From NCBI GenBank assembly GCA_002688105.1, contig NZBQ01000016.1, positions 30,851-94,850 on the forward strand: a DNA stretch of 64,000 nucleotides. Direction: 5' to 3'. The DNA comes from Dehalococcoidales bacterium. GTDB taxonomy: Bacteria > Chloroflexota > Dehalococcoidia > Dehalococcoidales > GCA-2688105. The translations under genes and the position numbers were made by a program. Shown piece after piece: positions 10,947 to 27,202 of the stretch (the stretch's first letter is position 1; every line of letters starts with the position of its first letter). The notes beneath the pieces were generated by a model that saw nothing but the letters and a program-made list of their open reading frames with translations, did no database searches and had not been told where the DNA came from.

Positions 10947-11030
10947 TTTTTTATTTTATTACAGGACACCTAGCCTCTTCTATTATCTTGAACACATAAC
11001 CCAAAAGCAGCAAAATACCGAGTGTTAATC

Positions 11031-11115
<85 letters not shown>

Positions 11116-11117
11116 GC

Positions 11118-13266: not shown

Positions 13267-13281
13267 TACTCTGTCTTAGCC

Positions 13282-13592: not shown

Positions 13593-13754
13593 GTATTGAC
13601 AACTTCGTAACGATGTATGCATAGTGGATACGATTTTTAAAGCCAGAATCGACCAAAAATATTAAAGGGGGAGTATTGACAACTACAGTAACGATGTGTA
13701 CATAATGGACACGATTTTTAAAGCCAGAATCGACCAAAAATATTAAAGGGGGAG
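13593..13754 (+). repeat. Tandem duplication (80 + 82 bp) of promoter, leader and RBS upstream of the catabolic cluster
   Basis: Each copy begins GTATTGACAACT (-35 TTGACA) and ends with an identical 48 nt, CGATTTTTAAAGCCAGAATCGACCAAAAATATTAAAGGGGGAG. Only copy 2 is followed by the ATG at 13764. Confidence 0.85.
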
Positions 13755-13763
13755 TAGAGAAAA

Positions 13764-14639
13764 ATGGGAAAAATCAGCTATGTTTCGACGCCAAAACTCA
13801 ACGATTACAAGAAGCAGTTCGCGGAGCATCTCATCATGGAGCGTAAAAACGGAATCCTTCAGGTGCGCATGCACACCAACGGTGGACCCTTCAAATGGTG
13901 CTTTCAGGCGCACCAAGCGCTGGAGGAGGCTTGGTCTGTGATCGGACACGACCGTGAAAACGAGCTGCTGATCCTGACCTCCACCGATCCGTACTGGGTA
14001 GGAAAATTTGACTGCGAGGCGTTTGGGGAAACTGAGGCTAATTATACTCCGGATACACATTACGATGCACTATACCGTGGGTGCACTAAGTTAGTGGAAA
14101 ATTTCATTTTCGACATCGATATTCCCACCATCGCCGCGATCAACGGGCCTGGCCTTCACTGGGAGTTTGCATTGTTAAGCAATGTCACCCTCTGCACGCC
14201 AGACTTCGTGTTACGAGATGACCATTTCAAGGGTGGAGTTGTGCCGGGTGACGGCATGAGTCTGTGTTTACAGGGCCTGCTCGGCATCAAGCGTGCCGCC
14301 TCCATGATGTACACGTTGAAAAGCATCGATGCTAAAACCTGCCTGGACTGGGGGGTTGTAAACGAGGTCATTCCGAGGGATAAGCTCTTGGGTCGTGCCT
14401 GGGATATCGCCGAAGAAATCATGAAGCAACCTCGAGTGGTCCGTCGCCTGACGAGCCAGCTCTTGAGGCGTCCCTGGAAACGTCTCCTTGTGGATGACTT
14501 TCAGGTCCACGTTGGTCACGAGATGTATGGCTACGCCCTGTTAGATACGAGGCATCCCAACATTTTTCCGGCGATTGAAGAAACCTTCCGGGCAGAGGCA
14601 GAGGCAGGGCAAGACTCGCAGGATCAGGAAAGCCCATGA
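13764..14639 (+). CDS. Crotonase-fold protein (enoyl-CoA hydratase/isomerase family)
   Basis: 291 aa with the family layout (LILTSTDPYW.GKFD, AAINGPG..., ...GDGMS...G...A..M.). Confidence 0.7.
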   Translation: MGKISYVSTPKLNDYKKQFAEHLIMERKNGILQVRMHTNGGPFKWCFQAHQALEEAWSVIGHDRENELLILTSTDPYWVGKFDCEAFGETEANYTPDTHYDALYRGCTKLVENFIFDIDIPTIAAINGPGLHWEFALLSNVTLCTPDFVLRDDHFKGGVVPGDGMSLCLQGLLGIKRAASMMYTLKSIDAKTCLDWGVVNEVIPRDKLLGRAWDIAEEIMKQPRVVRRLTSQLLRRPWKRLLVDDFQVHVGHEMYGYALLDTRHPNIFPAIEETFRAEAEAGQDSQDQESP

Positions 14640-14715
14640 GATTGTTAGTAGTGATGACCTCCGGGGTACGAAATAGTTGTGGTGAATAGATCGTTAACAT
14701 AACATAAGGAGAGGA

Positions 14716-15576
14716 ATGAAACCTTTTGAATATTTAGCACCGAGAAGTATTTCTGAGGCATGTGCTATGCTCTCAGAACATACGGAGGAGGCAAAGTTAC
14801 TTGCTGGAGGGCAAAGTTTATTGTTTTTGCTTGAGCAGAGGCTGATTACTCTTCGACACGTTATAGATATTAAGAAACTCACCCAATTAGATTATATTAA
14901 ACGTGGACAAAATAGTTTGAAGATAGGTGCATTAACCACTCAACGTACTTTAGAACTCTCCCCATTAGTCCAAGAGAAATTTCCTATACTACGTCAGATG
15001 GAAAGAGTGGCGGCACCAATACAAGTTAGAAATTGGGGAACTATAGGAGGTAGTCTTTGTCATGCTGAACCCTCCGGAGATCTAGGCGTTGCCTTAATCG
15101 CTCTAGGAGCAAAAGTCCGGGCAGTAAGTGATAGAGGTGAGCGGGAAGAACTCTTAGAGAATTTTTTTGTTGATTATCTTGAAACTATACTTAAGCCTGA
15201 TGAGATATTAACTGAAGTTGAAGTGCCTACCTTGTTACCTCATACAGGAAGCACTTATATTAAGGAGAGTAGGATGTTTGGGGGGTTCGCTATCGTCTCT
15301 GTTGCGGTAATAGTAACCTTGAATAGAGATACGATAAGTGACGCCCGAATTGTACTAGGAGGAGTAGGCCCTACATATGTAAGGACAAGACAGGCAGAGG
15401 AATATTTGAAGGGGAAGAGGACAAAAGGAAAGTTTGAAGAAGTAGGTACGCTAGCAGCCAACGAGGTACACCCAAGTTCAGATATGGAGGGTTCCGCAGA
15501 GTATAAGTGCCATATTGCAAGGATCATTGTAAACGAGGCTGTAGTTCGATCTATTAAGCAAGCAACGTTTATGTGA
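14716..15576 (+). CDS. Molybdenum hydroxylase FAD-binding (medium, CoxM/CutM-like) subunit
   Basis: LLAGGQSL and GTIGGSLCHAEP motifs in 286 aa. There is no Cys-rich insertion of the HcrB type. Confidence 0.85.
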   Translation: MKPFEYLAPRSISEACAMLSEHTEEAKLLAGGQSLLFLLEQRLITLRHVIDIKKLTQLDYIKRGQNSLKIGALTTQRTLELSPLVQEKFPILRQMERVAAPIQVRNWGTIGGSLCHAEPSGDLGVALIALGAKVRAVSDRGEREELLENFFVDYLETILKPDEILTEVEVPTLLPHTGSTYIKESRMFGGFAIVSVAVIVTLNRDTISDARIVLGGVGPTYVRTRQAEEYLKGKRTKGKFEEVGTLAANEVHPSSDMEGSAEYKCHIARIIVNEAVVRSIKQATFM

Positions 15577-15600
15577 AAAAACAAAGGCAGGTCATTAAAA

Positions 15601-16065
15601 GTGAAACAAGAGTTTGAATTCATATTAAATGGGGAAATCTGCGATGCTTATATTGAACCATGGCACTCCTTGTTAGATCTATTACGAGAGCAGTTCGCTC
15701 TAACTGGGGCAAAATCAGCGTGTCAATCAATGACGTGTGGTGCGTGCACTGTTCTTGTTGATGGTAAAGCTGTGAGGAGTTGCTCGATACTTGCACCTCA
15801 GGTGGAAGGAAGACATGTTGTTACTATAGAAGGGTTAGGTGGGGAAGACGGATTAGATCCTCTCCAGCAGGCTTTTATAGACCACTTTGCAGTACAATGT
15901 GGCTTCTGTACGCCAGGCATGATATTGACCGCTAAAGCCTTACTAGATGAAAACCCTAATCCCACAGAGGAAGAGGTGAGAATGCACCTAACCGGGAATT
16001 TATGCCGCTGTACCGGATACGTAAAAATAGTAGAGGCGATTCTGGCGGCTAGAAAAAAGGACTGA
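15601..16065 (+). CDS. Molybdenum hydroxylase [2Fe-2S] (small, CoxS-like) subunit
   Basis: Two cluster motifs are present: CQSMTCGACTV...C and QCGFCTPGM...CRCTGY. GTG start. Confidence 0.9.
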   Translation: MKQEFEFILNGEICDAYIEPWHSLLDLLREQFALTGAKSACQSMTCGACTVLVDGKAVRSCSILAPQVEGRHVVTIEGLGGEDGLDPLQQAFIDHFAVQCGFCTPGMILTAKALLDENPNPTEEEVRMHLTGNLCRCTGYVKIVEAILAARKKD

Positions 16066-16067
16066 CA

Positions 16068-17441
16068 GTGAAAACAATTATTGAACCCTTCCGAATTAAA
16101 TCCGTTGAGCCCATTACAATAAGTAACAGAGCTGCACGGGAATATTATCTGAAAGCTGCGCATCATAATCTGTTTCTCATACATTCAAGGGATGTAATTA
16201 TAGATCTCCTCACTGATTCCGGTACTGGAGCGATGAGCAGCGAACAATGGGCAGGTATTATGCGGGGAGATGAGAGTTACGCCGGCAGTATCAGTTTTCA
16301 GAGATTTGAACGGGTAGTCCAGAATATCTGGGGGTTTGAATACATTATACCAACTCATCAGGGACGTGCTGCTGAGCGGATATTATTTTCGGTGATATGC
16401 AAACCGGGTGATATTGTACCTAATAACACTCATTTTGATACTACCCGGGCAAATGTAGAATTTCAGGGTGCTGAAGCGCTGGATATTCCTATCCCTGAGA
16501 GCAAAGTTCCTGATATGTATCATCCATTCAAAGGTAATATTGACACTGATCAACTGAAAAAAGTGATCAAAAAGAATGGCATTAAAAAAATCCCTTTGAT
16601 AATGCTGACGATTACAAACAATGCCAGAGGTGGACAGCCCGTATCCATGGAGAATATTCGAGAGACATCTGAAATAGCAAAAGAATTCGGAATTCCGCTA
16701 TATCTGGATGCATGCCGATTTGCAGAAAATGCCTGGTTTATAAAACAGCGTGAAAATAGCTACCATGATAAATCCATCAAATCAATCGTATCAGAAATGT
16801 TTTCCTATGCCGATGGATGCACCATGAGTGCAAAAAAAGATGGTATCGCCAATATTGGCGGGGTATTATGTTCTAATGACAAGGAATTAGCCAAAAAAGA
16901 AAAGGATTTGCTAATTCTTACTGAAGGCTTTCCAACATATGGAGGACTTGCAGGCAGAGACCTAGAAGCAATTGCAATCGGTCTGGGAGAAGCAATGGAT
17001 GAAGATTACCTTCAGTACAGGATTTCATCAACCCAGTATCTGGGGGAACATTTACTGAAAGCAGGGGTACCCATTTTGCAACCCCCCGGCGGGCATGCTA
17101 TTTATATTGATGCTAAAACAATGCTGCCCGATATTAAACCTGAAGAATTCCCCGGTCAATCACTGATTTGTGCATTATACAAAGAAGCAGGAATCCGCGC
17201 AACGGAAGTAGGTAGTGTGATGTTTGGTAAGAAAGATAAACAAACCGGCAAAGAAATCCAAGCAGATATGGAACTGGTTCGGTTGGCAATACCACGGCGT
17301 ACTTATACTCAAAGTCATATTGATTATGTCATTGAAGCAATTTTGCAAGTAAACGAAAGAAAGGAAAATTTACGGGGATTGAAAATGACATACCAAGCAG
17401 AGTATCTCAGGCATTTTTCAGCACAGTTCAAACCGTTGTGA
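16068..17441 (+). CDS. tnaA: Tryptophanase-type beta-eliminating lyase (tryptophan indole-lyase)
   Basis: EPFRIKSVEP, DLLTDSGTGAMS and the PLP-Lys motif MSAKKDG. HFDTT (Asp) and LRHFSAQF (His) occupy the positions that distinguish tryptophanase from tyrosine phenol-lyase. The GTG start lies 2 nt after the small-subunit stop. Confidence 0.75.
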   Translation: MKTIIEPFRIKSVEPITISNRAAREYYLKAAHHNLFLIHSRDVIIDLLTDSGTGAMSSEQWAGIMRGDESYAGSISFQRFERVVQNIWGFEYIIPTHQGRAAERILFSVICKPGDIVPNNTHFDTTRANVEFQGAEALDIPIPESKVPDMYHPFKGNIDTDQLKKVIKKNGIKKIPLIMLTITNNARGGQPVSMENIRETSEIAKEFGIPLYLDACRFAENAWFIKQRENSYHDKSIKSIVSEMFSYADGCTMSAKKDGIANIGGVLCSNDKELAKKEKDLLILTEGFPTYGGLAGRDLEAIAIGLGEAMDEDYLQYRISSTQYLGEHLLKAGVPILQPPGGHAIYIDAKTMLPDIKPEEFPGQSLICALYKEAGIRATEVGSVMFGKKDKQTGKEIQADMELVRLAIPRRTYTQSHIDYVIEAILQVNERKENLRGLKMTYQAEYLRHFSAQFKPL

Positions 17442-17610
17442 TTATTTAAAACGGAAAACGTAATGCTTGAAATGTAAAGGTAGTCGTTAACTATTTTTCA
17501 TATCTTCTCCTATTTATGTTGTAAATATTCACGTTTTATCCAAGAGGTCCAGATGGGACTCTCAAGGAAATCTGGTTATTATTTCCAGGAATTTTGAAAG
17601 GGAACGGAAA

Positions 17611-19962
17611 ATGACTGAGTATAAAGTTATTGGCAAGAGTGTACCCAGGATAGATGCCCTAGAGAAGGTCACTGGTAGGGCCAAGTATACCTCAGACATT
17701 AAAGTGCCGGGTATGCTTTACGCAAAGATAAAAGGAAGTCCCTACCCTCACGCTAGGATTATTAATATTGACACTTCTAAAGCTGAGAAATTACGTGGAG
17801 TAAAAGGAGTAGTGACAGGGAAGGATGCACCACAGAAGCTTATTGGTTCACCCCTTGCTGACATGCCATTATTGGCTAATTATGGCATCGTTCGCTATGT
17901 AGGAGAACCTGTATCTGCAGTAGCTGCAGATACTATTGAGATTGCTGAGGAAGCACTTGATCTAATAGAGGTTGATTATGAAGAGTTGCCAGCGGTATTC
18001 GATGTGGAAGAGGCATTTAGGGAAAACGCACCAGTTATAGTACACCCAAAACTAAGTGATTATGAGCGTCTAGACAAAGACTTCCCAGAGATGGCGTGTC
18101 CTATTCAATTCGAGCCCAATAGGCCTAATGTCTTCACTCATTACAAGGTTCGCCAGGGCGAAGATGTGGAGGTGGGATTCCGCGAGGCTGATCTAGTTGT
18201 GGAGAATAGGTTTGTTACAGCTAGAGTACAGCACGTTCCACTTGAGACCCTGCAATGCATTGCACAGTACGACCTTAATGGAAGCATAACGATAATGAGC
18301 ACATTACAAGGCATATACCTGGGTAAAGCAGTATTTACTAATTATTTTGATATCTCTCCCTCTAAGGTAAGGGTGATTTCCCCATATGTAGGAGGAGCTT
18401 TTGGGTGTAGGACAGGTACATCGATGCAGTGTATCGCCATACTACTAGCACGAAAAAGCTTAAGACCGGTTAAATTGGCTTTTACTCGAGACGATGATAT
18501 GACTCTCGGTTTTCATAACCCTAACTTCGTTATTTATATTAAGGATGGGGTAAGTAAAGACGGTTATTTAACAGCTAGGCATATTAAGATATTGTATGAT
18601 GGCGGGGCATATGTTGCTGAACACTCATTATCTTTTGTTGCCCAATGTTCTGAGAAAGCATTGGCAACATACCGGATTCCTGCTTTTAAATTAGACACTT
18701 ACGGAGTGTACACTAATAAGACCCCAACCATTGCTATGAGGTCCGTTGGTGGTGTACAAGTAGCTTGGGCCCTAGAGCGACAAATGGACATAATAGCAGA
18801 AAGGTTAAATATTGACCCTACAAAGCTAAGAAGGAAGAACCTGCTAAAGGAGGGAGCAATAAACCTAATTGGAGAACCTGTTAGTAGTTTTGGCGCTAAA
18901 AAATGTCTGGATCAAGTGGCAAAATGGATGGAGAAAGCTGAGAAGCCTGAGCCTGAGGCAAACAATGTGTGGAAAATAGGGAACGGGATCTCACTTGGAT
19001 CACACTTCAGCATATGTGCCCCTATCTCAACTGCAACTGTGAAGCTTTACAGCGATGGGGTTATTGAAGTGGCCTATGCAGAAGATGAGCTTGGGCAAGG
19101 TTCTATGACTGTGCTGGCTCAGATCGCTGCCGAGGAGTTTGGAGTCTCCCTAGATAAAGTTAAGGTTGTGCGTGGGGATACAGCCAGTGCTCCTGTAGGT
19201 TTGGCTTCTGTCGCCAGTAGAACTACATATTTCGCAGGAAATGCCTTAGTACGAGCATGCCAAGAGGCTAAACGGAAGATATTTGCGCTGGCAGCGCCTA
19301 TGTTAGAGATGACCGCAGAAGAACTGGAAATGAGCGAAGGAAAGGTCTATGTCAAGGGAGTGCCTGATAAGGCAATTCTTATCAGTGACCTTTTTGGTCC
19401 TACTGGGGTAGCGCATGGATTGGAGACAATGGCAGGCAGAGGGGAACACAGAGATCCATTCATTGAAGCAGACCCCGAGACAGGTCAATCAAAGAAACTA
19501 TATACTTGGCATATTTATGGAGCTTATGGTGCACAGGTAGCAGTTAATGTGCAAACAGGCAAGGTTAAGGTCTTGAAGGCGGTTGGCGCTTATGACATGG
19601 GACGGGCGATAAATCCTAAGCTGTGTGAAGGGCAGATGGAAGGTGGTTTAGGTATAGGTCTAGGTATTGCTTTAAATGAGGCACTGGAATTTGATAAAGG
19701 AGCACTACTCAACCCTAATCTTATTGATTATAAGATGGCTACTGCTATGGAATTACCCAGTGTTGAGAACACCAAATCTATAATAGCAGCAGTTCCCTGT
19801 GATAGTGGACCCTATGGAGCCAAGGGGCTTGGTGAAATGACATCTGTAACCCCTGTGGCAGCAATAACAAATGCTGTCTGTAATGCTTTGGGGATAGCGA
19901 TAAACGAGATTCCAATCACGCGGGAGAGAGTGGTAAGGGCTCTTAAAGAGGCAAGAAAATAG
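17611..19962 (+). CDS. Molybdenum hydroxylase large (molybdopterin-binding, CoxL/XdhB-like) subunit
   Basis: 783 aa with the N-terminal a/b-hammerhead pattern (GKSVPRIDALEKVTGRAKYT.D), GGAFGCR, and AKGLGEM carrying the conserved catalytic-Glu context. It lacks the CODH VAYRCSFR-type loop. Confidence 0.85.
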   Translation: MTEYKVIGKSVPRIDALEKVTGRAKYTSDIKVPGMLYAKIKGSPYPHARIINIDTSKAEKLRGVKGVVTGKDAPQKLIGSPLADMPLLANYGIVRYVGEPVSAVAADTIEIAEEALDLIEVDYEELPAVFDVEEAFRENAPVIVHPKLSDYERLDKDFPEMACPIQFEPNRPNVFTHYKVRQGEDVEVGFREADLVVENRFVTARVQHVPLETLQCIAQYDLNGSITIMSTLQGIYLGKAVFTNYFDISPSKVRVISPYVGGAFGCRTGTSMQCIAILLARKSLRPVKLAFTRDDDMTLGFHNPNFVIYIKDGVSKDGYLTARHIKILYDGGAYVAEHSLSFVAQCSEKALATYRIPAFKLDTYGVYTNKTPTIAMRSVGGVQVAWALERQMDIIAERLNIDPTKLRRKNLLKEGAINLIGEPVSSFGAKKCLDQVAKWMEKAEKPEPEANNVWKIGNGISLGSHFSICAPISTATVKLYSDGVIEVAYAEDELGQGSMTVLAQIAAEEFGVSLDKVKVVRGDTASAPVGLASVASRTTYFAGNALVRACQEAKRKIFALAAPMLEMTAEELEMSEGKVYVKGVPDKAILISDLFGPTGVAHGLETMAGRGEHRDPFIEADPETGQSKKLYTWHIYGAYGAQVAVNVQTGKVKVLKAVGAYDMGRAINPKLCEGQMEGGLGIGLGIALNEALEFDKGALLNPNLIDYKMATAMELPSVENTKSIIAAVPCDSGPYGAKGLGEMTSVTPVAAITNAVCNALGIAINEIPITRERVVRALKEARK

Positions 19963-20138
19963 AGTGGGCTCGATTAGGAACTATCTGTGATAGAACGAGA
20001 TGGTAAATAGAAGTCCCATAATTACTAGAGTGCTGTAACGCTTAATCGATGATTTAATTATGAAGGAGGGAGTTGCCTATGAAGGAAGGATAATTCTAGA
20101 TTTATTAGGTACTAATAGAAAATAGGAGGTTACGATAA

Positions 20139-21335
20139 ATGAAAAAAAGAATGTTAATGCTACTGATTGCAGTGGTAGTGGTAACGAGCTTGGTTATTGC
20201 TGGTTGTGCGGCCCCAGCACCAGTGGAGAAATCACCAATAAAGATTGGTTTTGTTACCGACTACACCGGTTTCTTGGCTATTTATGGCCCGAAATGGGTA
20301 GCAGGCTTCGACCTTGCGTTCAAAGAGATCGGATGGGAAATCGCCGGTAGGAAGATAGAGGTAATATATGAAGACGGGGCAACCGACGAGACTATTGGCC
20401 TTGAGAAGGCAAAGAAGCTAGTGGAAGGTGACGAGGTAGACATCCTATATGGACCGGTTCACTCGTCAACGGTTAATGCTATTGCCCCCTATGCTACGAA
20501 CATGAAGATACCCTATGTGTTGTGCTTGGATAATGAGGTCGTACTTGAGAAATATGAGTATGTTTTTAACCCATTAGGGACCCTGCAGCAGCACTCTTCT
20601 CACTCAGGCACATATGCCTATGAACAGGGCTGGAGGACAGCTTCAATAATAACTCTCGATATGTTGGAGGGACATCTTTTCATGGAAGGCTTCAAAACTA
20701 TGTTTGAAGGGGCTGGCGGGACAATAGTTCAGGAGCAATATACAGACATGGCCACTGTAGATTTTGGCCCCTACCTAGCGAATCTAAAGGATGTCGATGT
20801 AGTAGCGGCGTGGTATCCAGGACCAGCAGGGCCGACGTTCGTTAAGCAGTATAACGAATATGGGTTTCTCGGGAGAGTACCGCTGTTAAGTGTAGTTCCC
20901 AGCGGTTGGATTGTGCCGGTAGAATTTCTCGAGGAACTTGGTGACTTAAGTGTAGGCTTACAGAGTGCAATCATCTACAGCAACGAAATTGACACACCCG
21001 CTAACAAGGCATTCATAGAGTCATCTCTTAAGTACTATGATAAGATGCCTTACTGGGAGGAGGCTGTGGCTTACGCAAGTGCTTCAGTAATTATTGAAGC
21101 ACTAAAAGCAACCGGAGGGGATACTGATCCTGAGAAAATACGCGAAGCTATCGAAACGATGGAGATCGAAACTCCCTTTGGCTCCTTACGCTTCGTTGAT
21201 AGGCCAGCGAGGTTCGCGGCTTATCCGGGGTACATCGTAGAAGTGGATAGAGTTAATGGCGAATGGATCCACCGTATAGTCGCTGAATATGATACTCATC
21301 CGCTAGACGGGATTGCTGAATACCCACCGAAATAG
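20139..21335 (+). CDS. ABC transporter substrate-binding lipoprotein (Leu/Ile/Val-binding protein family)
   Basis: Signal peptide plus lipobox LVIAGC, with type-I periplasmic binding fold sequence features. Confidence 0.85.
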   Translation: MKKRMLMLLIAVVVVTSLVIAGCAAPAPVEKSPIKIGFVTDYTGFLAIYGPKWVAGFDLAFKEIGWEIAGRKIEVIYEDGATDETIGLEKAKKLVEGDEVDILYGPVHSSTVNAIAPYATNMKIPYVLCLDNEVVLEKYEYVFNPLGTLQQHSSHSGTYAYEQGWRTASIITLDMLEGHLFMEGFKTMFEGAGGTIVQEQYTDMATVDFGPYLANLKDVDVVAAWYPGPAGPTFVKQYNEYGFLGRVPLLSVVPSGWIVPVEFLEELGDLSVGLQSAIIYSNEIDTPANKAFIESSLKYYDKMPYWEEAVAYASASVIIEALKATGGDTDPEKIREAIETMEIETPFGSLRFVDRPARFAAYPGYIVEVDRVNGEWIHRIVAEYDTHPLDGIAEYPPK

Positions 21336-21373
21336 TGGTTGAAGATGGTCGCCACTATCCAGAGGATATGCTA

Positions 21374-21433
21374 AAGCTAGGCAGATATAAGACACTGAAA
21401 ACACATCTGCCTAGCTTTATATGTGGTTTTTTG
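21374..21433 (+). terminator. Intra-operon hairpin / partial terminator after the binding-protein gene
   Basis: A 13-bp perfect stem, AAGCTAGGCAGAT...ATCTGCCTAGCTT, followed by TATATGTGGTTTTTTG. Confidence 0.5.
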
Positions 21434-21458
21434 ATTGCTCATCTTGGGAGTCAGTGAT

Positions 21459-22316
21459 ATGGAAGTTTTGTTGATAAATATTCTGAACGGACTTTCGTTC
21501 GGATTCATAATCTTCCTTTTGGGCAGTGGTTTATCATTAGTAATGGGCGTGTTAGGAGTTTTAAACCTAGCTCATGGTGCAATGGCTATGGTGGGCGCTT
21601 ATGTGGGAATATGGATAGCCCGGGCAACAGGCAATTTCTTATTAGGTGTTCTAGGAGGGGTGGTTGTTACCGGGCTTTTGAGCTTTGCGATAGAAAGATG
21701 GTTTTTACGCCGCCGTCATGGACTCATCCTTGATCAAGCATTGCTAACTGTGGGATTTCTCTATATTGCACAAGATGTGCTTCGCTGGATATGGGGACCA
21801 CATCCTCACGCGATCGATGCTCCTTGGATTTTTTCCGGCTCTATATTCATCGGGAAGCTGGGGTTCCCTACTTATCGTCTTGCACTTATGCTTATTGGGC
21901 TAATGGTGGCGATAGCTCTATATCTATTTGTGGAGAAGACCCGGACAGGTGCTATAATTCGAGCTGGGATGGATGACAAAGAAATGATAGTAGCATTGGG
22001 TGTAGACTACCAGCGAACTGCAACCTTGGTCTTCGTTCTTGGAGCAGGCTTAGCCGCCTTTGCTGGTTTCATGGGAGCGCCGGTGTTTGGAGCATACTTG
22101 ACTCTTGGGGTTGATGCCTTGCTTTTAGCAATATTTGTGGTCATTGTTGGTGGAATGGGGTCCGTGCAGGGGGCTTTTCTTGGGGCGATGGTAATCGGCC
22201 TCTTTGATGCTTTTAGTAAAGCCTATGTTCCTGATTTTTCCTGGCATATCCTTTATATTCTTCTAATTGTCATTCTGGTCTTAAGACCAGAAGGGCTTTT
22301 AGGAAAGAGGGTTTAG
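21459..22316 (+). CDS. Branched-chain-amino-acid-type ABC permease (LivH-like)
   Basis: The MEVLLINILNGLSFG start follows a GGGAG RBS (ORF track offers TTG 21435). It is a polytopic membrane protein. Confidence 0.85.
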   Translation: MEVLLINILNGLSFGFIIFLLGSGLSLVMGVLGVLNLAHGAMAMVGAYVGIWIARATGNFLLGVLGGVVVTGLLSFAIERWFLRRRHGLILDQALLTVGFLYIAQDVLRWIWGPHPHAIDAPWIFSGSIFIGKLGFPTYRLALMLIGLMVAIALYLFVEKTRTGAIIRAGMDDKEMIVALGVDYQRTATLVFVLGAGLAAFAGFMGAPVFGAYLTLGVDALLLAIFVVIVGGMGSVQGAFLGAMVIGLFDAFSKAYVPDFSWHILYILLIVILVLRPEGLLGKRV

Positions 22317-22317
22317 A

Positions 22318-23292
22318 GTGGCAAGGCTAGTTGTCGTGAGAAAACCTTGGTTTGTGAAGTTAGCGCCTTACATTATCAGTGCTATTGTCCTTGTCATAGT
22401 ACCGGCGTTTCTTCCTACGTATGTTCAAGGTATATTCACTAAGTTCGTAATTTTTGCGATATTTGCTATGAGTTTAGACCTTCTTTTTGGGTATGCCGGA
22501 CTTTACTCTTTAGGGCACGCGGCCTTTTTCGGTGTAGGAAGCTACACGACCGGCATCTTAATACTTCGTTTTGAAATAGACAGCTTCTGGGTCATTATTG
22601 CTATTGTTGTCCTGCTAAATCTTGTTATTGGTGCTGTCTTTGGAGCTATTGCACTTCGAGCATCTGGGGTATATTTCCTTCTTCTTACTGTCGCCTTGGG
22701 ACAGTTAATTTTTGTTACTGTGTGGAAATGGTATTCAATGACGGGAGGCAATAGCGGTTTGCCGGGTATACCTCGTCCAGAACTTGGCTTTCCTTGGGCT
22801 GCTTGGGACCCGGCCGGTTATTACTATTTCGTTTTGGGTTTCTTTGTCATTTGTTTTTTCTTACTACATCGAATCGTAAATTCTAGTTTTGGGCATACTT
22901 TGAAAGGCATTCAGGCAAATGCATTTCGGATGCGACACTTGGGTTATAACGTCTGGGGCTATCAGTATATCTCCTTTATCATTGCGGCAATATTCTCGGG
23001 AATAGCTGGTATGCTATTTGCATATTATATGGGTATTGCTGTTCCATCACATGCCGGTTTGACTAGCTCTATCCTTGTATTCCTCATGGTGGTTATTGGC
23101 GGTGCCGGTACACTTTTTGGCCCCGTTATAGGAGCTGGAGTGATAGTGCTTCTAGAGTTTTTTGTAAGCTTGTTAACCCCAGAGCATTGGCCTTTGGTCC
23201 TGGGGAGCATTTTTATCGCAACCATCATGTATTTTCGTGGGGGTTTAGGTGTCCACTTGCTAAAGTTCTGGCAAAGGATAAGGTATGACTAA
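22318..23292 (+). CDS. Branched-chain-amino-acid-type ABC permease (LivM-like)
   Basis: GTG start 1 nt after the LivH-like stop. GYAGLYSLGHAAFFGVG motif. Confidence 0.85.
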   Translation: MARLVVVRKPWFVKLAPYIISAIVLVIVPAFLPTYVQGIFTKFVIFAIFAMSLDLLFGYAGLYSLGHAAFFGVGSYTTGILILRFEIDSFWVIIAIVVLLNLVIGAVFGAIALRASGVYFLLLTVALGQLIFVTVWKWYSMTGGNSGLPGIPRPELGFPWAAWDPAGYYYFVLGFFVICFFLLHRIVNSSFGHTLKGIQANAFRMRHLGYNVWGYQYISFIIAAIFSGIAGMLFAYYMGIAVPSHAGLTSSILVFLMVVIGGAGTLFGPVIGAGVIVLLEFFVSLLTPEHWPLVLGSIFIATIMYFRGGLGVHLLKFWQRIRYD

Positions 23293-24040
23293 GGAAACGT
23301 TGAAAGTTGAAAACTTGTCAAAATCTTTCGGAGGTGCCCACGTACTGGAGGGCATTTTCTTCAGCGTAAAAGCTGGAGAATGTGTAGCGATAATCGGACC
23401 CAATGGAGCAGGGAAAACCACTTTGCTGAGTTTAGTTAGTGGTGAACTCCGACCCACAAGTGGTACAATATATCTTTTTGGTCAGATGGCTACTAATCAG
23501 AGCGTACAGCGTCGCGTTCGCCTTGGGTTAGGACGCTGTTTCCAAATAAATAGCCTCTTTCATGGCCTTACGGTGCTTGACAATCTTTTGCTAGCTCTCA
23601 AAAGCTCTCAGTCTCACTATTTCCAAGTGTTTCGGCCGATGACCACTTATACCAATTTACTTGTTGAAGCTAAGCAATTACTAAAATTCATTGGCTTACA
23701 GGAGAAAAAAAACGTGCTTATCAGCGACTTGTCTTACGGCGAGCAACGGCGACTAGAAGTTGCGCTCAGTCTAGCCACAAGGCCTAAATTACTATTATTG
23801 GATGAGCCGAGTGCTGGATTATCCAGCAATGAAGAAATTACCAGCCTTATCAACATACTTAGCGGCCTTACGAAAGACATCTCAATAGTTTTCTCTGCTC
23901 ATGATATGGACCTAGTTTTCCGTCTGGCTCATCGGGTCATTGTTCTTTACTATGGACAAATAATAGCCCAAGGAACACCTGAGGAAATTCAAGTCAATCC
24001 AAAAGTTCAAGAGATTTATTTAGGCGTTCAGGAGGAGTAG
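23285..24040 (+). CDS. ABC transporter ATP-binding protein (LivG-like)
   Basis: Walker A GPNGAGKTT, signature LSYGEQRR, Walker B LLLLDEP. It overlaps the preceding gene by 8 nt. Confidence 0.9.
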   Translation: MTKETLKVENLSKSFGGAHVLEGIFFSVKAGECVAIIGPNGAGKTTLLSLVSGELRPTSGTIYLFGQMATNQSVQRRVRLGLGRCFQINSLFHGLTVLDNLLLALKSSQSHYFQVFRPMTTYTNLLVEAKQLLKFIGLQEKKNVLISDLSYGEQRRLEVALSLATRPKLLLLDEPSAGLSSNEEITSLINILSGLTKDISIVFSAHDMDLVFRLAHRVIVLYYGQIIAQGTPEEIQVNPKVQEIYLGVQEE

Positions 24041-24067
24041 TTCAGTTTTTCAATAGGTGACCTTAAC

Positions 24068-24778
24068 ATGAAGATGTTAGAGATTAATGACGTTCATACA
24101 CATTATGGAGATGCTCATGTCCTGCACGGGATTTCGCTAGATGTTGAGGAGGGTTACACCACTACCATCTTGGGCCGCAACGGAATGGGAAAAACAACGA
24201 CCATTCGCTCAATCATTGGACTTACACCCCCACGCCGTGGCTCAGTTCGTTTCAAAGGGAGGGAAATCACCAACCTTCAGCCACATCAGATTGCTCGATT
24301 GGGTATCGGGTTAGTCGCCCAGGGGCGTCACATTTTTCCTTCACTGAGTGTGAAGGAAAACCTGTCTGTAGCAGCGCGAAGTAGAGGCAAAACTGGAGAT
24401 TGGTCTTTGGGAAGGGTTTATTCCCTGTTTCCGATTTTGAAAGAACGCGCCAATCTTAAAGGTAATCTCCTTAGTGGTGGGGAACAACAAATGTTAAACA
24501 TTGGTCGGGCCCTGATGACTAATCCACAGTTGCTTCTAATGGATGAGCCGTCAGAGGGCTTGGCGCCTTTGATCATTAAAGAAATTGAGCATGTTATCAC
24601 CGAGCTTAAAAGAGAAGGCCTCTCCATCTTACTGGCAGAGCAGAATCTGCGCTTGGGTTTAAGTATGGCTGATTATGTCTACATACTAGATAGAGGTAGA
24701 ATTGTATACGAATCTGTACCTGAAGAGCTAGAAAACAACGAGGAAATCAAGGCTAAGTATCTTGGAGTGACAAGTTAG
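24068..24778 (+). CDS. ABC transporter ATP-binding protein (LivF-like)
   Basis: Walker A GRNGMGKTT, signature LSGGEQQM, Walker B LLLMDEP. Confidence 0.9.
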   Translation: MKMLEINDVHTHYGDAHVLHGISLDVEEGYTTTILGRNGMGKTTTIRSIIGLTPPRRGSVRFKGREITNLQPHQIARLGIGLVAQGRHIFPSLSVKENLSVAARSRGKTGDWSLGRVYSLFPILKERANLKGNLLSGGEQQMLNIGRALMTNPQLLLMDEPSEGLAPLIIKEIEHVITELKREGLSILLAEQNLRLGLSMADYVYILDRGRIVYESVPEELENNEEIKAKYLGVTS

Positions 24779-24827
24779 TAGTTTGCAATACTTTTATAAA
24801 TATTGAAGTAGGGAGAGCTAATCAAAA

Positions 24828-25286
24828 ATGCTAATCGAGGGAAAGTTTACTTTAAATGCACCTATTCAAAAAGTATGGGATTTTCTACTTGAGCCGGGGA
24901 CATTGGCTTCCTGTATTCCAGGGGCAGAAGAAGTCAACGCTGTTGATGACAAGACATACGAAAGTATAGTGAAGCAGAAAGTTGGGCCTATTACAGTGAA
25001 GTTTAAATTTACCACGACTTTAACGGAAATGGAACCACCAAGATATTTGAAGGCAGTTGGCAAAGGAGCCGATATCGGTAAAGCCGGGACATTTGCTCAA
25101 GAAACTTTTGTTTACCTGACCGAAATTTCCGAAGAAGAAGTGGAGGTTTCATATAAGTCCAATGTCAGCTTAGTTGGACGATTGGCCGTTTTTGGAGACC
25201 GGGTAATGCGAAGCAAATCAAAGTCGGTGGGAGAGGAGTTTACCAGAAATTTACAGGAGAAACTGAAAAGTGACCTGGCTAAATAA
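24828..25286 (+). CDS. CoxG-like SRPBCC protein (Mo-hydroxylase accessory subunit G family)
   Basis: 152 aa, MLIEGKFTLNAPIQKVWDFLLEPGTLASCIPGAE, the typical CoxG N-terminus. Confidence 0.75.
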   Translation: MLIEGKFTLNAPIQKVWDFLLEPGTLASCIPGAEEVNAVDDKTYESIVKQKVGPITVKFKFTTTLTEMEPPRYLKAVGKGADIGKAGTFAQETFVYLTEISEEEVEVSYKSNVSLVGRLAVFGDRVMRSKSKSVGEEFTRNLQEKLKSDLAK

Positions 25287-25837: not shown

Positions 25838-25881
25838 TGAAAAGTACCATTAGACTATATCTCTTGGCGTGCAATACCCAG

Positions 25882-27053: not shown

Positions 27054-27202
27054 ACATAAAAGCCCTGAAAAGGGCTTTCGGTGTTTCTAGATAGGTTGTC
27101 AACCTGATTTTTCAAGCAATGTCAACCTGATTGTTTAAAAACTGAATAGATTTTGGGCCGGTCCCAGCTTCAAAAATTGGCCGGAATTTAAAAATGTGAC
27201 AA

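What the first reader, a model, noticed from the sequence alone, without database searches (positions are those of the whole stretch)
13764..25286. Molybdenum hydroxylase cluster with an embedded tryptophanase and a dedicated ABC importer: candidate uncharacterised Trp/indole catabolic module
The sequence shows eleven same-strand genes with short gaps or overlaps. In order they are a crotonase-fold protein, a Mo-hydroxylase FAD subunit, a 2Fe-2S subunit, tryptophanase, the Mo large subunit, a Liv-type binding protein, two permeases, two ATPases, and CoxG. The order M-S-[lyase]-L is unusual because a PLP beta-eliminating lyase sits between the small and large subunits of a xanthine-oxidase-family enzyme. 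Its GTG start is only 2 nt after the small-subunit stop. Established knowledge: tryptophanase releases indole, pyruvate and ammonia. Xanthine-oxidase-family enzymes hydroxylate N-heterocycles with water-derived oxygen. Anaerobic indole degradation has been described physiologically as proceeding through oxindole, and to my knowledge the genes are poorly defined. Inference: the ABC system imports tryptophan or a related aromatic amino acid, the lyase generates indole, and the MSL enzyme hydroxylates it. An alternative is that the MSL enzyme is a purine/xanthine dehydrogenase working with the adenine-deaminase-like gene at 27525-29318.
Basis: partly seen in the sequence, partly recalled or inferred. 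Interest (0 to 1): 0.78.

Follow-up and report, generated by a model that had tools for sequence, protein, structure and literature searches.

The report
Tryptophanase gene inside a molybdenum-hydroxylase operon
A marine Dehalococcoidia genome carries what looks like a horizontally acquired gene block in which a genuine tryptophanase sits between the subunit genes of a molybdenum hydroxylase, next to an ABC importer; this may be a tryptophan-to-indole-to-oxindole route, but the link is unproven and the arrangement was found in one species only.

Summary

Refinements:
- **Lyase:** it is a tryptophan indole-lyase, not the tyrosine phenol-lyase NCBI names. Its specificity positions read D124/F288/T379/V381/H449.
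- **"Crotonase":** it is a homolog of the CoA-independent 6-oxocamphor/beta-diketone hydrolases, with all remembered catalytic residues conserved.
- **Binding protein:** it matches aromatic-acid binders (141 bits), not LivJ-type amino-acid binders (about 40 bits).
- **Large subunit:** it reaches no characterised family cut-off. It is not a xanthine dehydrogenase, 4-hydroxybenzoyl-CoA reductase or CO dehydrogenase.

Genes 14716-26829 form a low-GC3 block (0.32-0.47, against 0.48-0.64 elsewhere). tRNA genes and an integrase fragment lie upstream and a tRNA-like element downstream. The hydrolase gene lies outside the block.

M-S-lyase-L occurs only in this Tara Oceans species. The nearest large-subunit relative (58%) and the nearest lyases (83-71%) lack the pairing.

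Best reading (about 0.4): tryptophan or an indolic acid is imported, cleaved to indole, and the indole is hydroxylated. Main rival (about 0.33): the lyase is a co-expressed passenger. The purine alternative is rejected.

The parts
10871..11115 (+). tRNA-Cys (10871-10946) and tRNA-Leu(UAA) (11031-11115). A typical integration hotspot upstream of the region.
   Evidence: ARAGORN; Rfam tRNA at 69.9 and 57.1 bits.
11382..11819 (+). Integrase remnant: 145 aa, covering only the C-terminal catalytic part of a tyrosine recombinase. GC3 is 0.37.
   Evidence: Pfam Phage_integrase, profile positions 48-171 of 172; GC3.
13596..13763 (+). Promoter-like region plus 5' leader plus Shine-Dalgarno site of the hydrolase gene, present as an 81-bp tandem duplication (13607-13682 and 13688-13763, 91% identical).
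   Evidence: the repeat finder family D1; TTGACA-18-CATAGT promoter-like site at 13596-13625. Strain L100 has a single copy.
13764..14639 (+). Crotonase-superfamily beta-diketone (retro-Claisen C-C) hydrolase homolog of the 6-oxocamphor hydrolase (OCH) / Anabaena beta-diketone hydrolase (ABDH) type. It has host-like composition (GC3 0.63).
   Evidence: PDB 1o8u at 142 bits and 2j5g at 135 bits, against 61 bits or less for enoyl-CoA hydratases. The equivalents of OCH H122, H145, D154 and E244 are all conserved. No NCBIfam cut-off is reached.
14716..15576 (+). FAD-binding medium subunit (M) of a xanthine-oxidase-family molybdenum hydroxylase. First gene of the low-GC3 block.
   Evidence: Pfam FAD_binding_5 + CO_deh_flav_C. 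It has only 3 Cys, so it lacks the [4Fe-4S] insertion of HcrB. GC3 is 0.32.
15601..16065 (+). Small subunit (S) with two [2Fe-2S] clusters.
   Evidence: Pfam Fer2_2/Fer2. Both motifs are present: C41-x4-C46-x2-C49-x11-C61 and C100-x2-C103-x31-C135-x-C137.
16068..17441 (+). Tryptophan indole-lyase (tryptophanase, PLP-dependent), embedded between S and L.
   Evidence: Pfam Beta_elim_lyase. NCBIfam subfamily PRK13238 'tryptophanase' at 695.6 bits against a cut-off of 285. Specificity positions are D124/F288/T379/V381/H449. Catalytic Y71, K257, D214, N185 and the PRR motif are present.
17442..17610 (+). AT-rich 169-nt spacer between the lyase and L. It has no convincing terminator, promoter or stable structure.
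   Evidence: No site was listed here by the scan. Fold z-score is -0.26. It is conserved in strain L098 with 4 substitutions.
17611..19962 (+). Molybdopterin-binding large subunit (L), specificity unassigned.
   Evidence: Pfam Ald_Xan_dh_C + MoCoBD_1 + MoCoBD_2. The best NCBIfam matches are all far below their cut-offs. The best PDB match is 4-HBCR alpha, 1rm6, at 360 bits. Q207 and E742 are present. The active-site loops FGCRT and IAMRSVGG are atypical for the clade.
20139..21335 (+). Lipoprotein substrate-binding protein of a HAAT-family ABC importer. It is closest to aromatic-acid binders.
   Evidence: Pfam Peripla_BP_6. PDB 4ey3, 4zpj, 4evs and 4f06 score 141-123 bits; amino-acid binders score about 40 bits. 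The signal peptide has a lipobox, IAGC.
21435..23292 (+). Two ABC permeases (21435/21459-22316 and 22318-23292).
   Evidence: Pfam BPD_transp_2 twice; called gene start.
23285..24778 (+). Two ABC ATPases (23285-24040 and 24068-24778).
   Evidence: Pfam ABC_tran, BCA_ABC_TP_C.
24828..25286 (+). CoxG-like SRPBCC protein, an accessory of xanthine-oxidase-family enzymes.
   Evidence: Pfam COXG at 73 bits.
25355..26829 (-). ACT-domain protein (25355-25837) and a phosphate butyryl/acetyl-transferase-like protein (25882-26829). They share the low GC3 of the block and were probably transferred with it. They are not part of the + strand operon.
   Evidence: Pfam ACT_8, PTA_PTB. NCBIfam PRK05805 at 296 bits against a cut-off of 399. 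GC3 0.38-0.39.
27178..27249 (+). Degenerate tRNA-like element at the right edge of the low-GC3 block, embedded in an array of short repeats.
   Evidence: Rfam tRNA at 31.6 bits against a gathering score of 29. ARAGORN does not call it. Repeats and an 18-bp perfect inverted repeat lie at 27284-27336.

Best explanation
A roughly 12.6-kb gene block (14716 to about 27300) sits in a marine mesopelagic Dehalococcoidia genome. I infer that it was acquired horizontally. It encodes a two-enzyme partial-oxidation route. A lipoprotein-anchored ABC system imports tryptophan or a closely related indolic or aromatic acid. This step is inferred, and the ligand is unknown. The embedded PLP enzyme is a true tryptophan indole-lyase and releases indole, pyruvate and ammonia. 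Its identity is shown by its residues; its activity is inferred. The FAD / 2x[2Fe-2S] / molybdenum (M-S-L) enzyme then hydroxylates the indole heterocycle with water-derived oxygen, most likely at C2 to give oxindole, and passes two electrons towards the membrane with help from CoxG. This last step is inferred and the substrate is not shown. Placing the lyase between S and L, 2 nt after the S stop, ties production of the toxic product to the enzyme that removes it. The upstream beta-diketone hydrolase gene has host-like composition. It probably supplies the promoter but is not explained by this route.
For: - **Lyase identity.** The five positions that separate indole-lyases from phenol-lyases (PMC5805759) read D/F/T/V/H here. 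E. coli tryptophanase has D/F/V/I/H and the phenol-lyase has T/M/M/R/F. Of the 120 closest homologs, 84 read DFVIH, and T379 or V381 variants also occur among them. The catalytic residues are intact.
- **Physical coupling.** There are 2 nt between the S stop and the lyase GTG, with a Shine-Dalgarno motif inside S. No terminator or promoter consensus lies in the 169-nt spacer before L. The order is kept in strains about 2-3% divergent, with all genes intact.
- **Shared composition.** M, S, lyase, L, the ABC genes and CoxG all have GC3 of 0.32-0.47, against 0.48-0.64 for the host genes. This fits the lyase and the M-S-L genes having travelled as one unit.
- **Few catalytic genes.** The lyase and the M-S-L enzyme are the only clearly catabolic enzymes in the block, apart from a divergent phosphotransacylase-like gene on the other strand.
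- **The molybdenum enzyme looks functional and unassigned.** It keeps the Gln/Glu catalytic pair and both Fe-S motifs. It belongs to no characterised specificity group.
- **Physiological precedent.** Anaerobic indole degradation starts with C2 hydroxylation to oxindole using water-derived oxygen. The genes were called a 'black box' in a 2018 review, and oxindole accumulates as an end product under some conditions (PMC6221969).
- **Pairing with a transporter is normal.** Tryptophanase genes are commonly paired with a dedicated transporter, for example in D. hafniense (PMC3306737).
Against: - The binding protein resembles aromatic-acid binders at about 28-30% identity, not amino-acid binders.
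- The arrangement was found in one species only. The closest large-subunit relative (58%, L007) sits in an L-S-M-L cluster without a lyase. The closest lyases (83, 72 and 71%) are stand-alone genes. None of 82 related M-S-L loci has a lyase within 10 kb. The junction pattern found only this species among 241 million metagenome records.
- The window holds no isatin or anthranilate pathway genes and no XdhC-like maturation gene.
- Nothing in the large-subunit sequence identifies indole as its substrate.
- The electron-rich pyrrole ring is not a classical xanthine-oxidase-family substrate (my own chemical knowledge).
- The adjacent beta-diketone hydrolase has no role in this scheme.
Confidence: 0.4

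Rival explanations
1. Passenger model. M-S-L, the ABC importer and CoxG form a self-contained dehydrogenase module for an imported aromatic or N-heteroaromatic carboxylic acid. The tryptophanase gene was inserted between S and L by recombination. It is co-expressed but metabolically independent: general tryptophan, cysteine or serine catabolism, or nitrogen scavenging.
For: The binding protein is closest to benzoate-derivative binders (PMC3223731). The nearest large-subunit relative (58%) lies in a cluster with UbiD, amidohydrolases, an OYE-type reductase, a CN-hydrolase and a similar ABC system. That is a heteroaromatic-acid catabolic context, and it has no lyase. Close lyase homologs are stand-alone genes in unrelated phyla; the closest (83% aa, 77% nt, with homology confined to the coding sequence) is in a low-GC organism carrying a type IX secretion (T9SS) marker. 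The junctions are asymmetric: 2 nt before the lyase and a 169-nt AT-rich spacer after it. This looks like an insertion scar. The arrangement is restricted to a single lineage.
Against: An insertion that splits the subunit genes of a heterotrimer, yet stays intact and tightly coupled in all sampled strains, suggests selection for co-expression. The lyase's composition is indistinguishable from that of M, S and L. The block has no other enzyme that would carry an aromatic-acid pathway further.
Confidence: 0.33
2. Ring-cleavage model. The M-S-L enzyme works with the upstream beta-diketone hydrolase. The molybdenum enzyme hydrates or hydroxylates and then dehydrogenates a cyclic enone or a 4-oxo-heterocycle, producing a 1,3-dicarbonyl compound. 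The crotonase-type hydrolase then opens the ring by a retro-Claisen reaction, without O2. The substrate would be an imported carboxylated alicyclic or heterocyclic compound. The lyase is incidental.
For: The hydrolase is a strong OCH/ABDH homolog with all remembered catalytic residues. It lies 76 nt upstream of M with no terminator-like structure between them, and it carries the only good promoter-like sites. There is precedent: a xanthine-oxidase-family 1-testosterone dehydrogenase that makes a cyclic 1,3-diketone is clustered with a ring-A beta-diketone hydrolase in anaerobic steroid degraders. The gene for cyclohexane-1,3-dione hydrolase is still unknown (PMC11780191). A homolog of the hydrolase in another Chloroflexi contig sits among polyphenol-type genes (AhtL-like molybdenum enzymes, SDR, 3HCDH).
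Against: The hydrolase gene has host-like GC3 (0.63), while M-S-L has 0.32-0.39. The adjacency therefore looks secondary. None of the three hydrolase-homolog contexts inspected has a xanthine-oxidase-family neighbour. None of 82 related M-S-L loci has this hydrolase. The model gives the lyase no role.
Confidence: 0.12
3. Purine model. The M-S-L enzyme is a xanthine/purine dehydrogenase cooperating with the adenine-deaminase-like gene at 27525-29318.
For: Only generic family resemblance: XdhA-type NCBIfam models score 485 and 482 bits. An Adenine_deam_C protein lies 2.2 kb away.
Against: All xanthine dehydrogenase equivalog cut-offs are missed by wide margins: 485 against 780, 482 against 916, 418 against 784, and 262 against 850. 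The residue after the GGxFGxK/R motif is T268. Bovine XDH has the substrate-binding Glu802 there (the bovine numbering is from memory). The Arg880-equivalent position appears to be Q345 (mapping from memory). The deaminase-like gene is on the opposite strand, outside the low-GC3 block (GC3 0.50), beyond the tRNA-like element. It also misses its own family cut-off (294 against 472.5).
Confidence: 0.03

Closest known systems
Tryptophanase operons with a dedicated tryptophan transporter (E. coli tnaCAB; D. hafniense tnaA plus permease)
   Same: A bona fide tryptophan indole-lyase (specificity residues, PLP lysine) is encoded next to an uptake system (PMC3306737).
   Different: There is no TnaB/Mtr-type permease. 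The transporter is a five-component HAAT-family ABC system whose binding protein resembles aromatic-acid binders. The lyase is embedded inside a molybdenum-hydroxylase operon. No Rfam family matched the region and no TnaC-like leader was identified, although leader peptides were not searched for specifically.
Three-subunit xanthine-oxidase-family molybdenum hydroxylases of bacteria (quinoline 2-oxidoreductase, nicotinate and nicotine/ketone dehydrogenases, CoxMSL with CoxG)
   Same: The M (FAD), S (2x[2Fe-2S]) and L (molybdopterin) subunits, the catalytic Gln/Glu pair and the CoxG accessory are all present.
   Different: The usually contiguous subunit genes are interrupted by an unrelated PLP enzyme. 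The large subunit meets no characterised family threshold. Its active-site loops (FGCRT, IAMRSVGG, one-residue insertion) differ even from its relatives at about 50% identity.
4-Hydroxybenzoyl-CoA reductase (Thauera aromatica HcrCAB, PDB 1rm6)
   Same: It is the best solved-structure match for the large subunit (360 bits). The two share the FGxRT and AMR motifs in two active-site loops.
   Different: TIGR03194 scores 518 against a cut-off of 994.55. The FAD subunit lacks the Cys-rich [4Fe-4S] insertion (3 Cys in 286 aa). The cluster has no CoA ligase.
Xanthine-oxidase-family 1-testosterone dehydrogenase plus steroid ring-A beta-diketone hydrolase (anaerobic 2,3-seco pathway; PMC11780191)
   Same: A xanthine-oxidase-family molybdenum enzyme is encoded next to a C-C-cleaving beta-diketone hydrolase, which would allow O2-independent ring opening.
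   Different: The hydrolase here belongs to the crotonase superfamily (OCH type), not the amidohydrolase-2 family. The two genes differ in composition. There are no CoA-ligase or beta-oxidation genes. The organism is a Dehalococcoidia member, not a denitrifying proteobacterium.
6-Oxocamphor hydrolase (Rhodococcus, 1o8u) and Anabaena beta-diketone hydrolase (2j5g)
   Same: The window protein aligns over about 240 residues at 142 and 135 bits. The equivalents of H122, H145, D154 and E244 are conserved.
   Different: It is 291 aa with N- and C-terminal extensions. Identity is only moderate (not computed) and the substrate is unknown.
Rhodopseudomonas palustris aromatic-acid ABC binding proteins (RPA0668/HbaE, RPA0985; PDB 4evq, 4evs, 4ey3, 4f06)
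   Same: They are the best structural-database matches of the binding protein. They belong to the same Peripla_BP_6 fold and the same five-component transporter type (ligands per PMC3223731). The assignment of PDB codes to proteins is from memory.
   Different: Identity is only about 28-30% and the ligand is untested. The protein here is anchored as a lipoprotein.
Anaerobic indoleacetate (iaa) cluster of Aromatoleum/Azoarcus
   Same: From memory of Ebenau-Jehle et al. 2012: a xanthine-oxidase-family dehydrogenase was proposed to hydroxylate the indole C2 of indoleacetate, and the cluster includes a periplasmic binding protein and ABC components. The binding protein IaaM is confirmed in PMC8360864.
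   Different: The window has no CoA ligase, mutase, acyl-CoA dehydrogenase or hydantoinase-like genes. The iaa cluster has no tryptophanase. I could not verify the molybdenum-enzyme step in the papers available here.

Membership tests
Tryptophan indole-lyase (tryptophanase, EC 4.1.99.1) | Beta-eliminating-lyase fold with the PLP lysine and catalytic Tyr/Asp/Asn/Arg | tested here: met
   Pfam PF01212 at 286 bits. The equivalents of Y71, K257, D214, N185 and the PRR motif are present in alignments to TPL and to tryptophanase 8sij.
Tryptophan indole-lyase (tryptophanase, EC 4.1.99.1) | The five indole-pocket residues that differ from the phenol-lyase: Asp137, Phe304, Val394, Ile396, His463 (E. 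coli numbering; PMC5805759) | tested here: met
   The window has D124, F288, T379, V381 and H449. D, F and H are identical to the E. coli tryptophanase, V381 is a conservative hydrophobic replacement of Ile396, and T379 is a small residue that also occurs in 15 of 120 clade members.
Tryptophan indole-lyase (tryptophanase, EC 4.1.99.1) | Curated NCBIfam thresholds | tested here: inconclusive
   The subfamily model PRK13238 'tryptophanase' passes (695.6 against 285). The equivalog models do not: TIGR02617 scores 525 against 825.8 and NF053783 scores 579 against 750.
Tryptophan indole-lyase (tryptophanase, EC 4.1.99.1) | Indole release from L-tryptophan | not testable with these tools
   This needs an enzyme assay.
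Tyrosine phenol-lyase (EC 4.1.99.2; NCBI's name for this protein) | Thr124, Met288, Met379, Arg381, Phe448 (C. freundii numbering) | tested here: not met
   None of the five is present. In particular the essential Arg381 is Val. TIGR02618 scores 566 against 720.7.
Xanthine-oxidase-family molybdenum hydroxylase (M-S-L heterotrimer) | The full set of subunit domains, two [2Fe-2S] Cys motifs, the Gln that contacts the Mo=O group, and the catalytic Glu | tested here: met
   Pfam. Cys motifs in S. Q207 in RVQHVPLE and E742 in GAKGLGE, both conserved across the clade.
Xanthine dehydrogenase | Equivalog score, and the substrate-binding Glu802 and Arg880 (bovine numbering, from memory) | tested here: not met
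   NCBIfam scores are 485 against 780, 482 against 916, 418 against 784 and 262 against 850. T268 stands at the Glu802 position and Q345 at the presumed Arg880 position.
4-Hydroxybenzoyl-CoA reductase | Equivalog scores for all three subunits, and a [4Fe-4S]-binding insertion in the FAD subunit | tested here: not met
   Alpha scores 518 against 994.55, beta 82 against 404.55 and gamma 176 against 257.8. The FAD subunit is 286 aa with 3 Cys and no insertion.
Aerobic CO dehydrogenase (form I CoxL) | Active-site loop VAYRCSFR with the Cu-binding Cys | tested here: not met
   The window loop is IAMRSVGG. TIGR02416 scores 321 against 991.
6-Oxocamphor hydrolase / beta-diketone hydrolase subgroup of the crotonase superfamily | Closer to OCH/ABDH than to CoA-dependent crotonases; conserved His122, the His145/Asp154 dyad and Glu244 (residue roles from memory of the OCH structural papers) | tested here: met
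   142 and 135 bits against 61 or less. All four residues align identically. Every enoyl-CoA hydratase NCBIfam model is far below its cut-off.
6-Oxocamphor hydrolase / beta-diketone hydrolase subgroup of the crotonase superfamily | Retro-Claisen cleavage of a beta-diketone without CoA | not testable with these tools
   This needs an enzyme assay.
HAAT (Liv-type) ABC importer for amino acids | One binding protein, two permeases and two ATPases | tested here: met
   Pfam.
HAAT (Liv-type) ABC importer for amino acids | A binding protein of the amino-acid-binding kind | tested here: inconclusive
   The best solved relatives bind benzoate derivatives (141-123 bits). Amino-acid binders score about 35-56 bits. 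At about 28-30% identity the ligand cannot be read off.
Genomic island (horizontally acquired block) | A compositional break, tRNA adjacency and recombinase remnants | tested here: met
   GC3 of the 12 block genes is 0.32-0.47, against 0.48-0.64 for every other gene except the integrase fragment, with no overlap. tRNA-Cys, tRNA-Leu and the integrase fragment lie upstream. A tRNA-like element and repeats lie downstream. No flanking direct repeats (att sites) were found.

The most novel reading that the evidence does not exclude
The M-S-L enzyme is the long-sought water-dependent indole C2-hydroxylase (indole to oxindole). The block is then a portable 'import, cleave, hydroxylate' unit. It would let an oligotrophic Dehalococcoidia member from the deep or low-oxygen ocean take pyruvate, ammonia and two respiratory electrons from tryptophan while detoxifying indole. 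It would also give the first gene-level handle on O2-independent indole oxidation.
Probability: 0.28. Interest if true: 0.78.

Novelty: new variant of a known kind. Interest (0 to 1): 0.55.

Why it matters
Oxygen-independent indole degradation has been known physiologically since the 1980s. It runs from indole through oxindole and isatin to anthranilate. A 2018 review still called its genes a 'black box' (PMC6221969). My searches of the open literature found no paper that links a tryptophanase to a molybdenum hydroxylase.

This block offers a small, clonable candidate: three subunit genes and a lyase. It makes the question directly testable. It would also show how a dark-ocean Chloroflexi member could partly oxidise an amino acid.

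Even if the link fails, three results stand:
- A database annotation is corrected (tryptophanase, not tyrosine phenol-lyase).
- The 'enoyl-CoA hydratase' is identified as a CoA-independent beta-diketone hydrolase homolog.
- A rare case is documented in which an unrelated gene is inserted between the subunit genes of a heterotrimeric enzyme and kept there.

Tried and rejected
- **GTDB scan with an alignment of 32 large-subunit sequences.** It did not return the window's own species. It therefore served only as a negative co-occurrence sample.
- **tRNA-Leu or tRNA-Cys 3' ends as att repeats at the right edge of the block.** No match. The right-edge tRNA-like element is unrelated to both tRNAs.
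- **dN/dS between strains.** There are too few substitutions (5-52 per gene) to say more than that the genes are intact, with ratios of 0.1-0.5.
- **Riboswitch or leader search with Rfam at E <= 1 across 10500-30000.** Only tRNAs were found. There is no Moco riboswitch and no T-box.
- **Folding of the two critical spacers.** Neither is more structured than shuffled controls.
- **Homology of the lyase flanks to the flanks of the closest lyase, L010.** None. Similarity stops at the coding sequence.
- **Plasmid collection search with the large subunit.** Identity was 39% or less and the names were generic.
- **Enoyl-CoA hydratase, and with it a CoA-thioester pathway.** Rejected after the PDB comparison.
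- **4-Hydroxybenzoyl-CoA reductase with a phenol-lyase (tyrosine to phenol).** Considered because NCBI names the lyase a tyrosine phenol-lyase and 4-HBCR is the best PDB hit. Rejected on residues and on the missing Fe-S insertion.
- **The 2012 anaerobic indoleacetate paper.** I could not retrieve it, so that comparison rests on memory.

Full report
**Observation.** Their Pfam domains match the description. In order they are:
- a crotonase-fold protein (ECH_1)
- an FAD subunit (FAD_binding_5 + CO_deh_flav_C)
- a 2x[2Fe-2S] subunit (Fer2_2)
- a beta-eliminating lyase
- a molybdopterin large subunit (Ald_Xan_dh_C + MoCoBD_1/2)
- a Peripla_BP_6 binding protein
- two BPD_transp_2 permeases
- two ABC ATPases
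- a COXG protein

The lyase GTG (16068) follows the small-subunit TGA (16063-16065) by 2 nt. An AAGGA motif sits inside the end of the small-subunit gene. The other gaps are 76, 24, 169, 176, 99, 1, -8, 27 and 49 nt. The exact lyase protein occurs on 18 contigs read. These come from ENA and Logan assemblies. Tara-labelled member sequences appear in the cluster look-up. NCBI assigns the sequence to a 'Dehalococcoidales bacterium' MAG (MAF85559.1). Fragments carry the labels TARA_037_MES and TARA_039_MES. By my memory those are mesopelagic stations in the Arabian Sea oxygen-minimum region.

**The lyase.** NCBI calls it tyrosine phenol-lyase, while JGI uses both names for members of its clade. 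NCBIfam places it in the 'tryptophanase' subfamily (695.6 bits against a cut-off of 285) but below every equivalog cut-off. It scores equally against solved phenol-lyases and a solved tryptophanase (491 bits each).

The residue test decides the matter. Five pocket positions separate the two enzymes (PMC5805759).

| Enzyme | Pocket residues |
|---|---|
| E. coli tryptophanase | Asp137, Phe304, Val394, Ile396, His463 |
| Phenol-lyase | Thr124, Met288, Met379, Arg381, Phe448 |
| Window protein | D124, F288, T379, V381, H449 |

The phenol-lyase base Arg381 is therefore absent, and the indole-NH-binding Asp and the His are present. Among its 120 closest homologs, 84 read DFVIH, and the T and V variants recur. 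The catalytic Tyr, Lys, Asp, Asn and Arg are intact. It is a tryptophan indole-lyase.

**The 'crotonase'.** Its best solved relatives are 6-oxocamphor hydrolase (142 bits) and the Anabaena beta-diketone hydrolase (135 bits). True enoyl-CoA hydratases reach at most 61 bits. The OCH residues H122, H145, D154 and E244 all align with identical residues. The H122A mutant entry 1szo confirms the numbering. This is the CoA-independent, C-C-cleaving (retro-Claisen) branch of the superfamily (Grogan et al. 2001, as cited in PMC11780191). Its homologs at 55-70% identity sit in unrelated contexts, none next to a xanthine-oxidase-family gene. One Chloroflexi context holds AhtL-like molybdenum enzymes, an SDR and a 3-hydroxyacyl-CoA dehydrogenase-like gene. 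That fits a role in cleaving cyclic diketones.

**The molybdenum enzyme.**
- The small subunit has both [2Fe-2S] motifs.
- The FAD subunit has only three cysteines, so it lacks the [4Fe-4S] insertion of 4-hydroxybenzoyl-CoA reductase.
- The large subunit keeps the Gln (Q207) and the catalytic Glu (E742).
- It reaches no curated family threshold: 4-HBCR alpha 518 against 995, XdhA 485 against 780, CoxL 321 against 991, PaoC 287 against 1180.
- Its best solved match is 4-HBCR alpha (360 bits), followed by CO dehydrogenases (273 bits or less).
- In two active-site loops it reads GGAFGCRT and IAMRSVGG, where the clade consensus is GGxFGGK and GAFRGFG. It also carries a one-residue insertion shared only with its closest relative.
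- The positions that I remember as Glu802 and Arg880 of bovine xanthine dehydrogenase are T268 and Q345.

So the enzyme is a functional-looking hydroxylase of unassigned specificity. It is not a xanthine dehydrogenase, 4-HBCR or CO dehydrogenase.

**The transporter.** The binding protein has a lipoprotein signal (lipobox IAGC). Its best solved relatives are 4ey3, 4evs and 4f06 (141-123 bits) and a Sphaerobacter protein (140 bits). LivJ-type and other amino-acid binders score about 35-56 bits. By my memory 4evs and 4evq are RPA0985 and RPA0668, which bind 4-hydroxybenzoate and benzoate. The same study found that most 'branched-chain amino acid' annotated binders do not bind such amino acids (PMC3223731). 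At about 28-30% identity the ligand is open. There is no positive evidence for tryptophan.

**Composition and setting.** The twelve genes from 14716 to 26829 have GC3 of 0.32-0.47. They are M, S, lyase, L, the five ABC genes, CoxG and, on the other strand, an ACT protein and a phosphotransacylase-like protein. Every other gene in the window has 0.48-0.64, except a 145-aa integrase fragment at 0.37. The hydrolase gene (0.63) and the upstream M20 peptidase (0.54) are host-like.

Upstream lie tRNA-Cys, tRNA-Leu and the integrase remnant. At the right edge lies a tRNA-like element that Rfam scores just above threshold (31.6 against 29) and ARAGORN does not call. It sits among short repeats and an 18-bp perfect palindrome. 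The rest of the window is housekeeping: nadC, fur, folC-like, groEL, ileS, fabF, gyrA and others. It holds no Moco maturation genes and no isatin or anthranilate genes.

I infer a horizontally acquired block inserted next to the resident hydrolase gene. No att repeats were found, so this rests on composition and context.

**How widespread is M-S-lyase-L?**
- In a collection of 5.8 billion protein clusters, the large subunit has its own species cluster (97-100%). The next relative is at 58%, and then there are many at about 50%.
- The 58% relative sits in an L-S-M-L cluster with UbiD, amidohydrolases, an OYE-type reductase, a CN-hydrolase and a similar ABC system. There is no lyase. A 49% relative likewise has none.
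- The lyase has its own cluster. After that come an 83% homolog in a low-GC organism carrying a type IX secretion (T9SS) marker, and 72% and 71% homologs. All three are stand-alone genes. The homology to the 83% homolog (77% nt) stops at the coding sequence.
- None of the 80 GTDB loci encoding relatives at 32-43%, nor either of the two loci above, has a lyase or the hydrolase within 10 kb.
- A degenerate DNA pattern spanned the junction, from CRCTGY of the small subunit, across 170-231 nt, to DSGTxAMSxxQWA of the lyase. It found the window itself. Among 241 million metagenome records it found only two contigs, both 98-100% identical to the window.
- Two strains about 2-3% divergent keep the order with all genes intact.

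The arrangement is real, stable within the species, and so far unique to it. The pattern test covers only tight junctions and QWAG-type lyases.

**Transcription.** The only good sigma-70-like site near the cluster lies upstream of the hydrolase gene (TTGACA-18-CATAGT at 13596). It sits within an 81-bp unit that is tandemly duplicated in this strain and single in strain L100. No terminator-like or promoter-like site falls in the 76-nt, 2-nt or 169-nt junctions. Neither spacer folds better than shuffled sequence. Co-transcription from the hydrolase promoter through at least L is therefore plausible but not shown. The consensus used may not apply to Chloroflexi.

**Interpretation.** Three readings remain.

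(a) Coupled route. Tryptophan or an indolic acid is imported, the lyase makes indole, and the molybdenum enzyme hydroxylates it.
- In favour: the verified identity of the lyase; its position inside the subunit genes; the composition it shares with M, S and L; the small number of catabolic genes in the block; and the known physiology of anaerobic C2 hydroxylation to oxindole, whose genes are unknown (PMC6221969).
- Against: the binding protein's affinities; restriction to a single lineage; the absence of downstream genes; and the lack of any sequence evidence for indole as the substrate.

(b) Passenger model. The molybdenum enzyme and the ABC system handle an aromatic or heteroaromatic acid, and the lyase is an insertion that happens to be co-expressed. 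This is supported by the relatives' contexts, by the asymmetric junctions (2 nt against a 169-nt AT-rich spacer) and by the binding protein.

(c) Ring-cleavage model. The molybdenum enzyme makes a cyclic 1,3-dicarbonyl compound for the adjacent beta-diketone hydrolase. The clustered 1-testosterone dehydrogenase and ring-A hydrolase of anaerobic steroid degraders are a precedent (PMC11780191). The compositional break between the two genes and the lack of co-occurrence elsewhere weaken it.

I weight these about 0.40, 0.33 and 0.12. The purine alternative gets 0.03, and the remainder is left for unknowns.

**Novelty.** Each component is a member of a known family. The combination was not found in any related locus I examined. 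It was also absent from the open literature I searched. No paper among those held combined tryptophanase, molybdopterin and oxindole, and my other searches gave nothing relevant. I class it as a new variant of a known kind. Its value is as a compact, testable candidate for the oxygen-independent indole hydroxylase.

Noticed in passing
window 13607-13763: An 81-bp unit holding the promoter-like site, the 5' leader and the Shine-Dalgarno site of the hydrolase gene is tandemly duplicated (91% identity between copies). This holds in the window and in contigs L001-L004. The 98%-identical strain L100 has a single, more divergent copy. The duplication is therefore a strain-level polymorphism that could raise or alter expression of the whole operon.
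   Followed up: partly
window 27096-27336: A degenerate tRNA-like element lies at 27178-27249 (Rfam 31.6 bits; not called by ARAGORN). It has a possible UUU anticodon and an aberrant D-arm. It sits in an array of TGTCAACCTGATTTT-like repeats next to an 18-bp perfect inverted repeat (27284-27301 / 27319-27336). It may be a relic attachment site or a regulatory array at the edge of the low-GC3 block.
   Followed up: partly
window 11382-11819 (and 11716-13266): A truncated tyrosine-recombinase gene (only the C-terminal 145 aa, GC3 0.37) lies directly after tRNA-Cys and tRNA-Leu. The long ORF of the M20 peptidase overlaps it; gene callers start the peptidase at 11941. Two host-like genes separate this remnant from the low-GC3 block, which suggests more than one integration or rearrangement event.
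   Followed up: partly
window 25355-26829 (- strand): An ACT-pair protein and a phosphate butyryl/acetyl-transferase-like protein (296 bits against a cut-off of 399) share the foreign composition of the block. No acyl kinase is nearby. Their role is unknown. They could link to pyruvate or acyl-CoA use.
   Followed up: no
window 27525-29318 (- strand): An adenine-deaminase-like amidohydrolase (Adenine_deam_C domain) scores well below the adenine deaminase equivalog cut-off (294 against 472.5). It may have a different substrate. Its composition is host-like and it lies outside the block.
   Followed up: partly
window 29771-31659 (- strand): Transketolase is encoded as two separate ORFs, an N-terminal half (30721-31659) and a C-terminal half (29771-30718), 2 nt apart. 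In the organism with the closest lyase homolog (L010), a full-length transketolase directly follows the lyase. This is probably coincidence.
   Followed up: no
window 46542-47833: A 136-aa DegV fragment lies immediately upstream of a full-length DegV gene. It may be a duplicated or decayed copy.
   Followed up: no
window 13282-13422 (- strand): A small 46-aa DUF5679 gene was called on the opposite strand between the M20 peptidase and the hydrolase promoter region (seen in the gene calls for L001-L004).
   Followed up: no
L007 (ERZ25039515 contig_77210) 250-19800: The closest large-subunit relative lies in a large candidate N-heteroaromatic-acid catabolic cluster. It holds UbiD, Amidohydro_2, a cyclic amidase-like gene, an OYE plus Pyr_redox_2 reductase, a CN-hydrolase, two large-subunit paralogs with S and M, a HAAT ABC system and a PreA-like Fe-S flavoenzyme. 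The cluster is itself uncharacterised.
   Followed up: no
L096 / L097 (Chloroflexi contigs): A 60% homolog of the beta-diketone hydrolase sits between a 3-hydroxyacyl-CoA-dehydrogenase-like gene, an SDR, a cupin and two AhtL-like (transhydroxylase-type) molybdopterin enzymes. This is a candidate anaerobic polyphenol or cyclic-diketone cleavage cluster.
   Followed up: no
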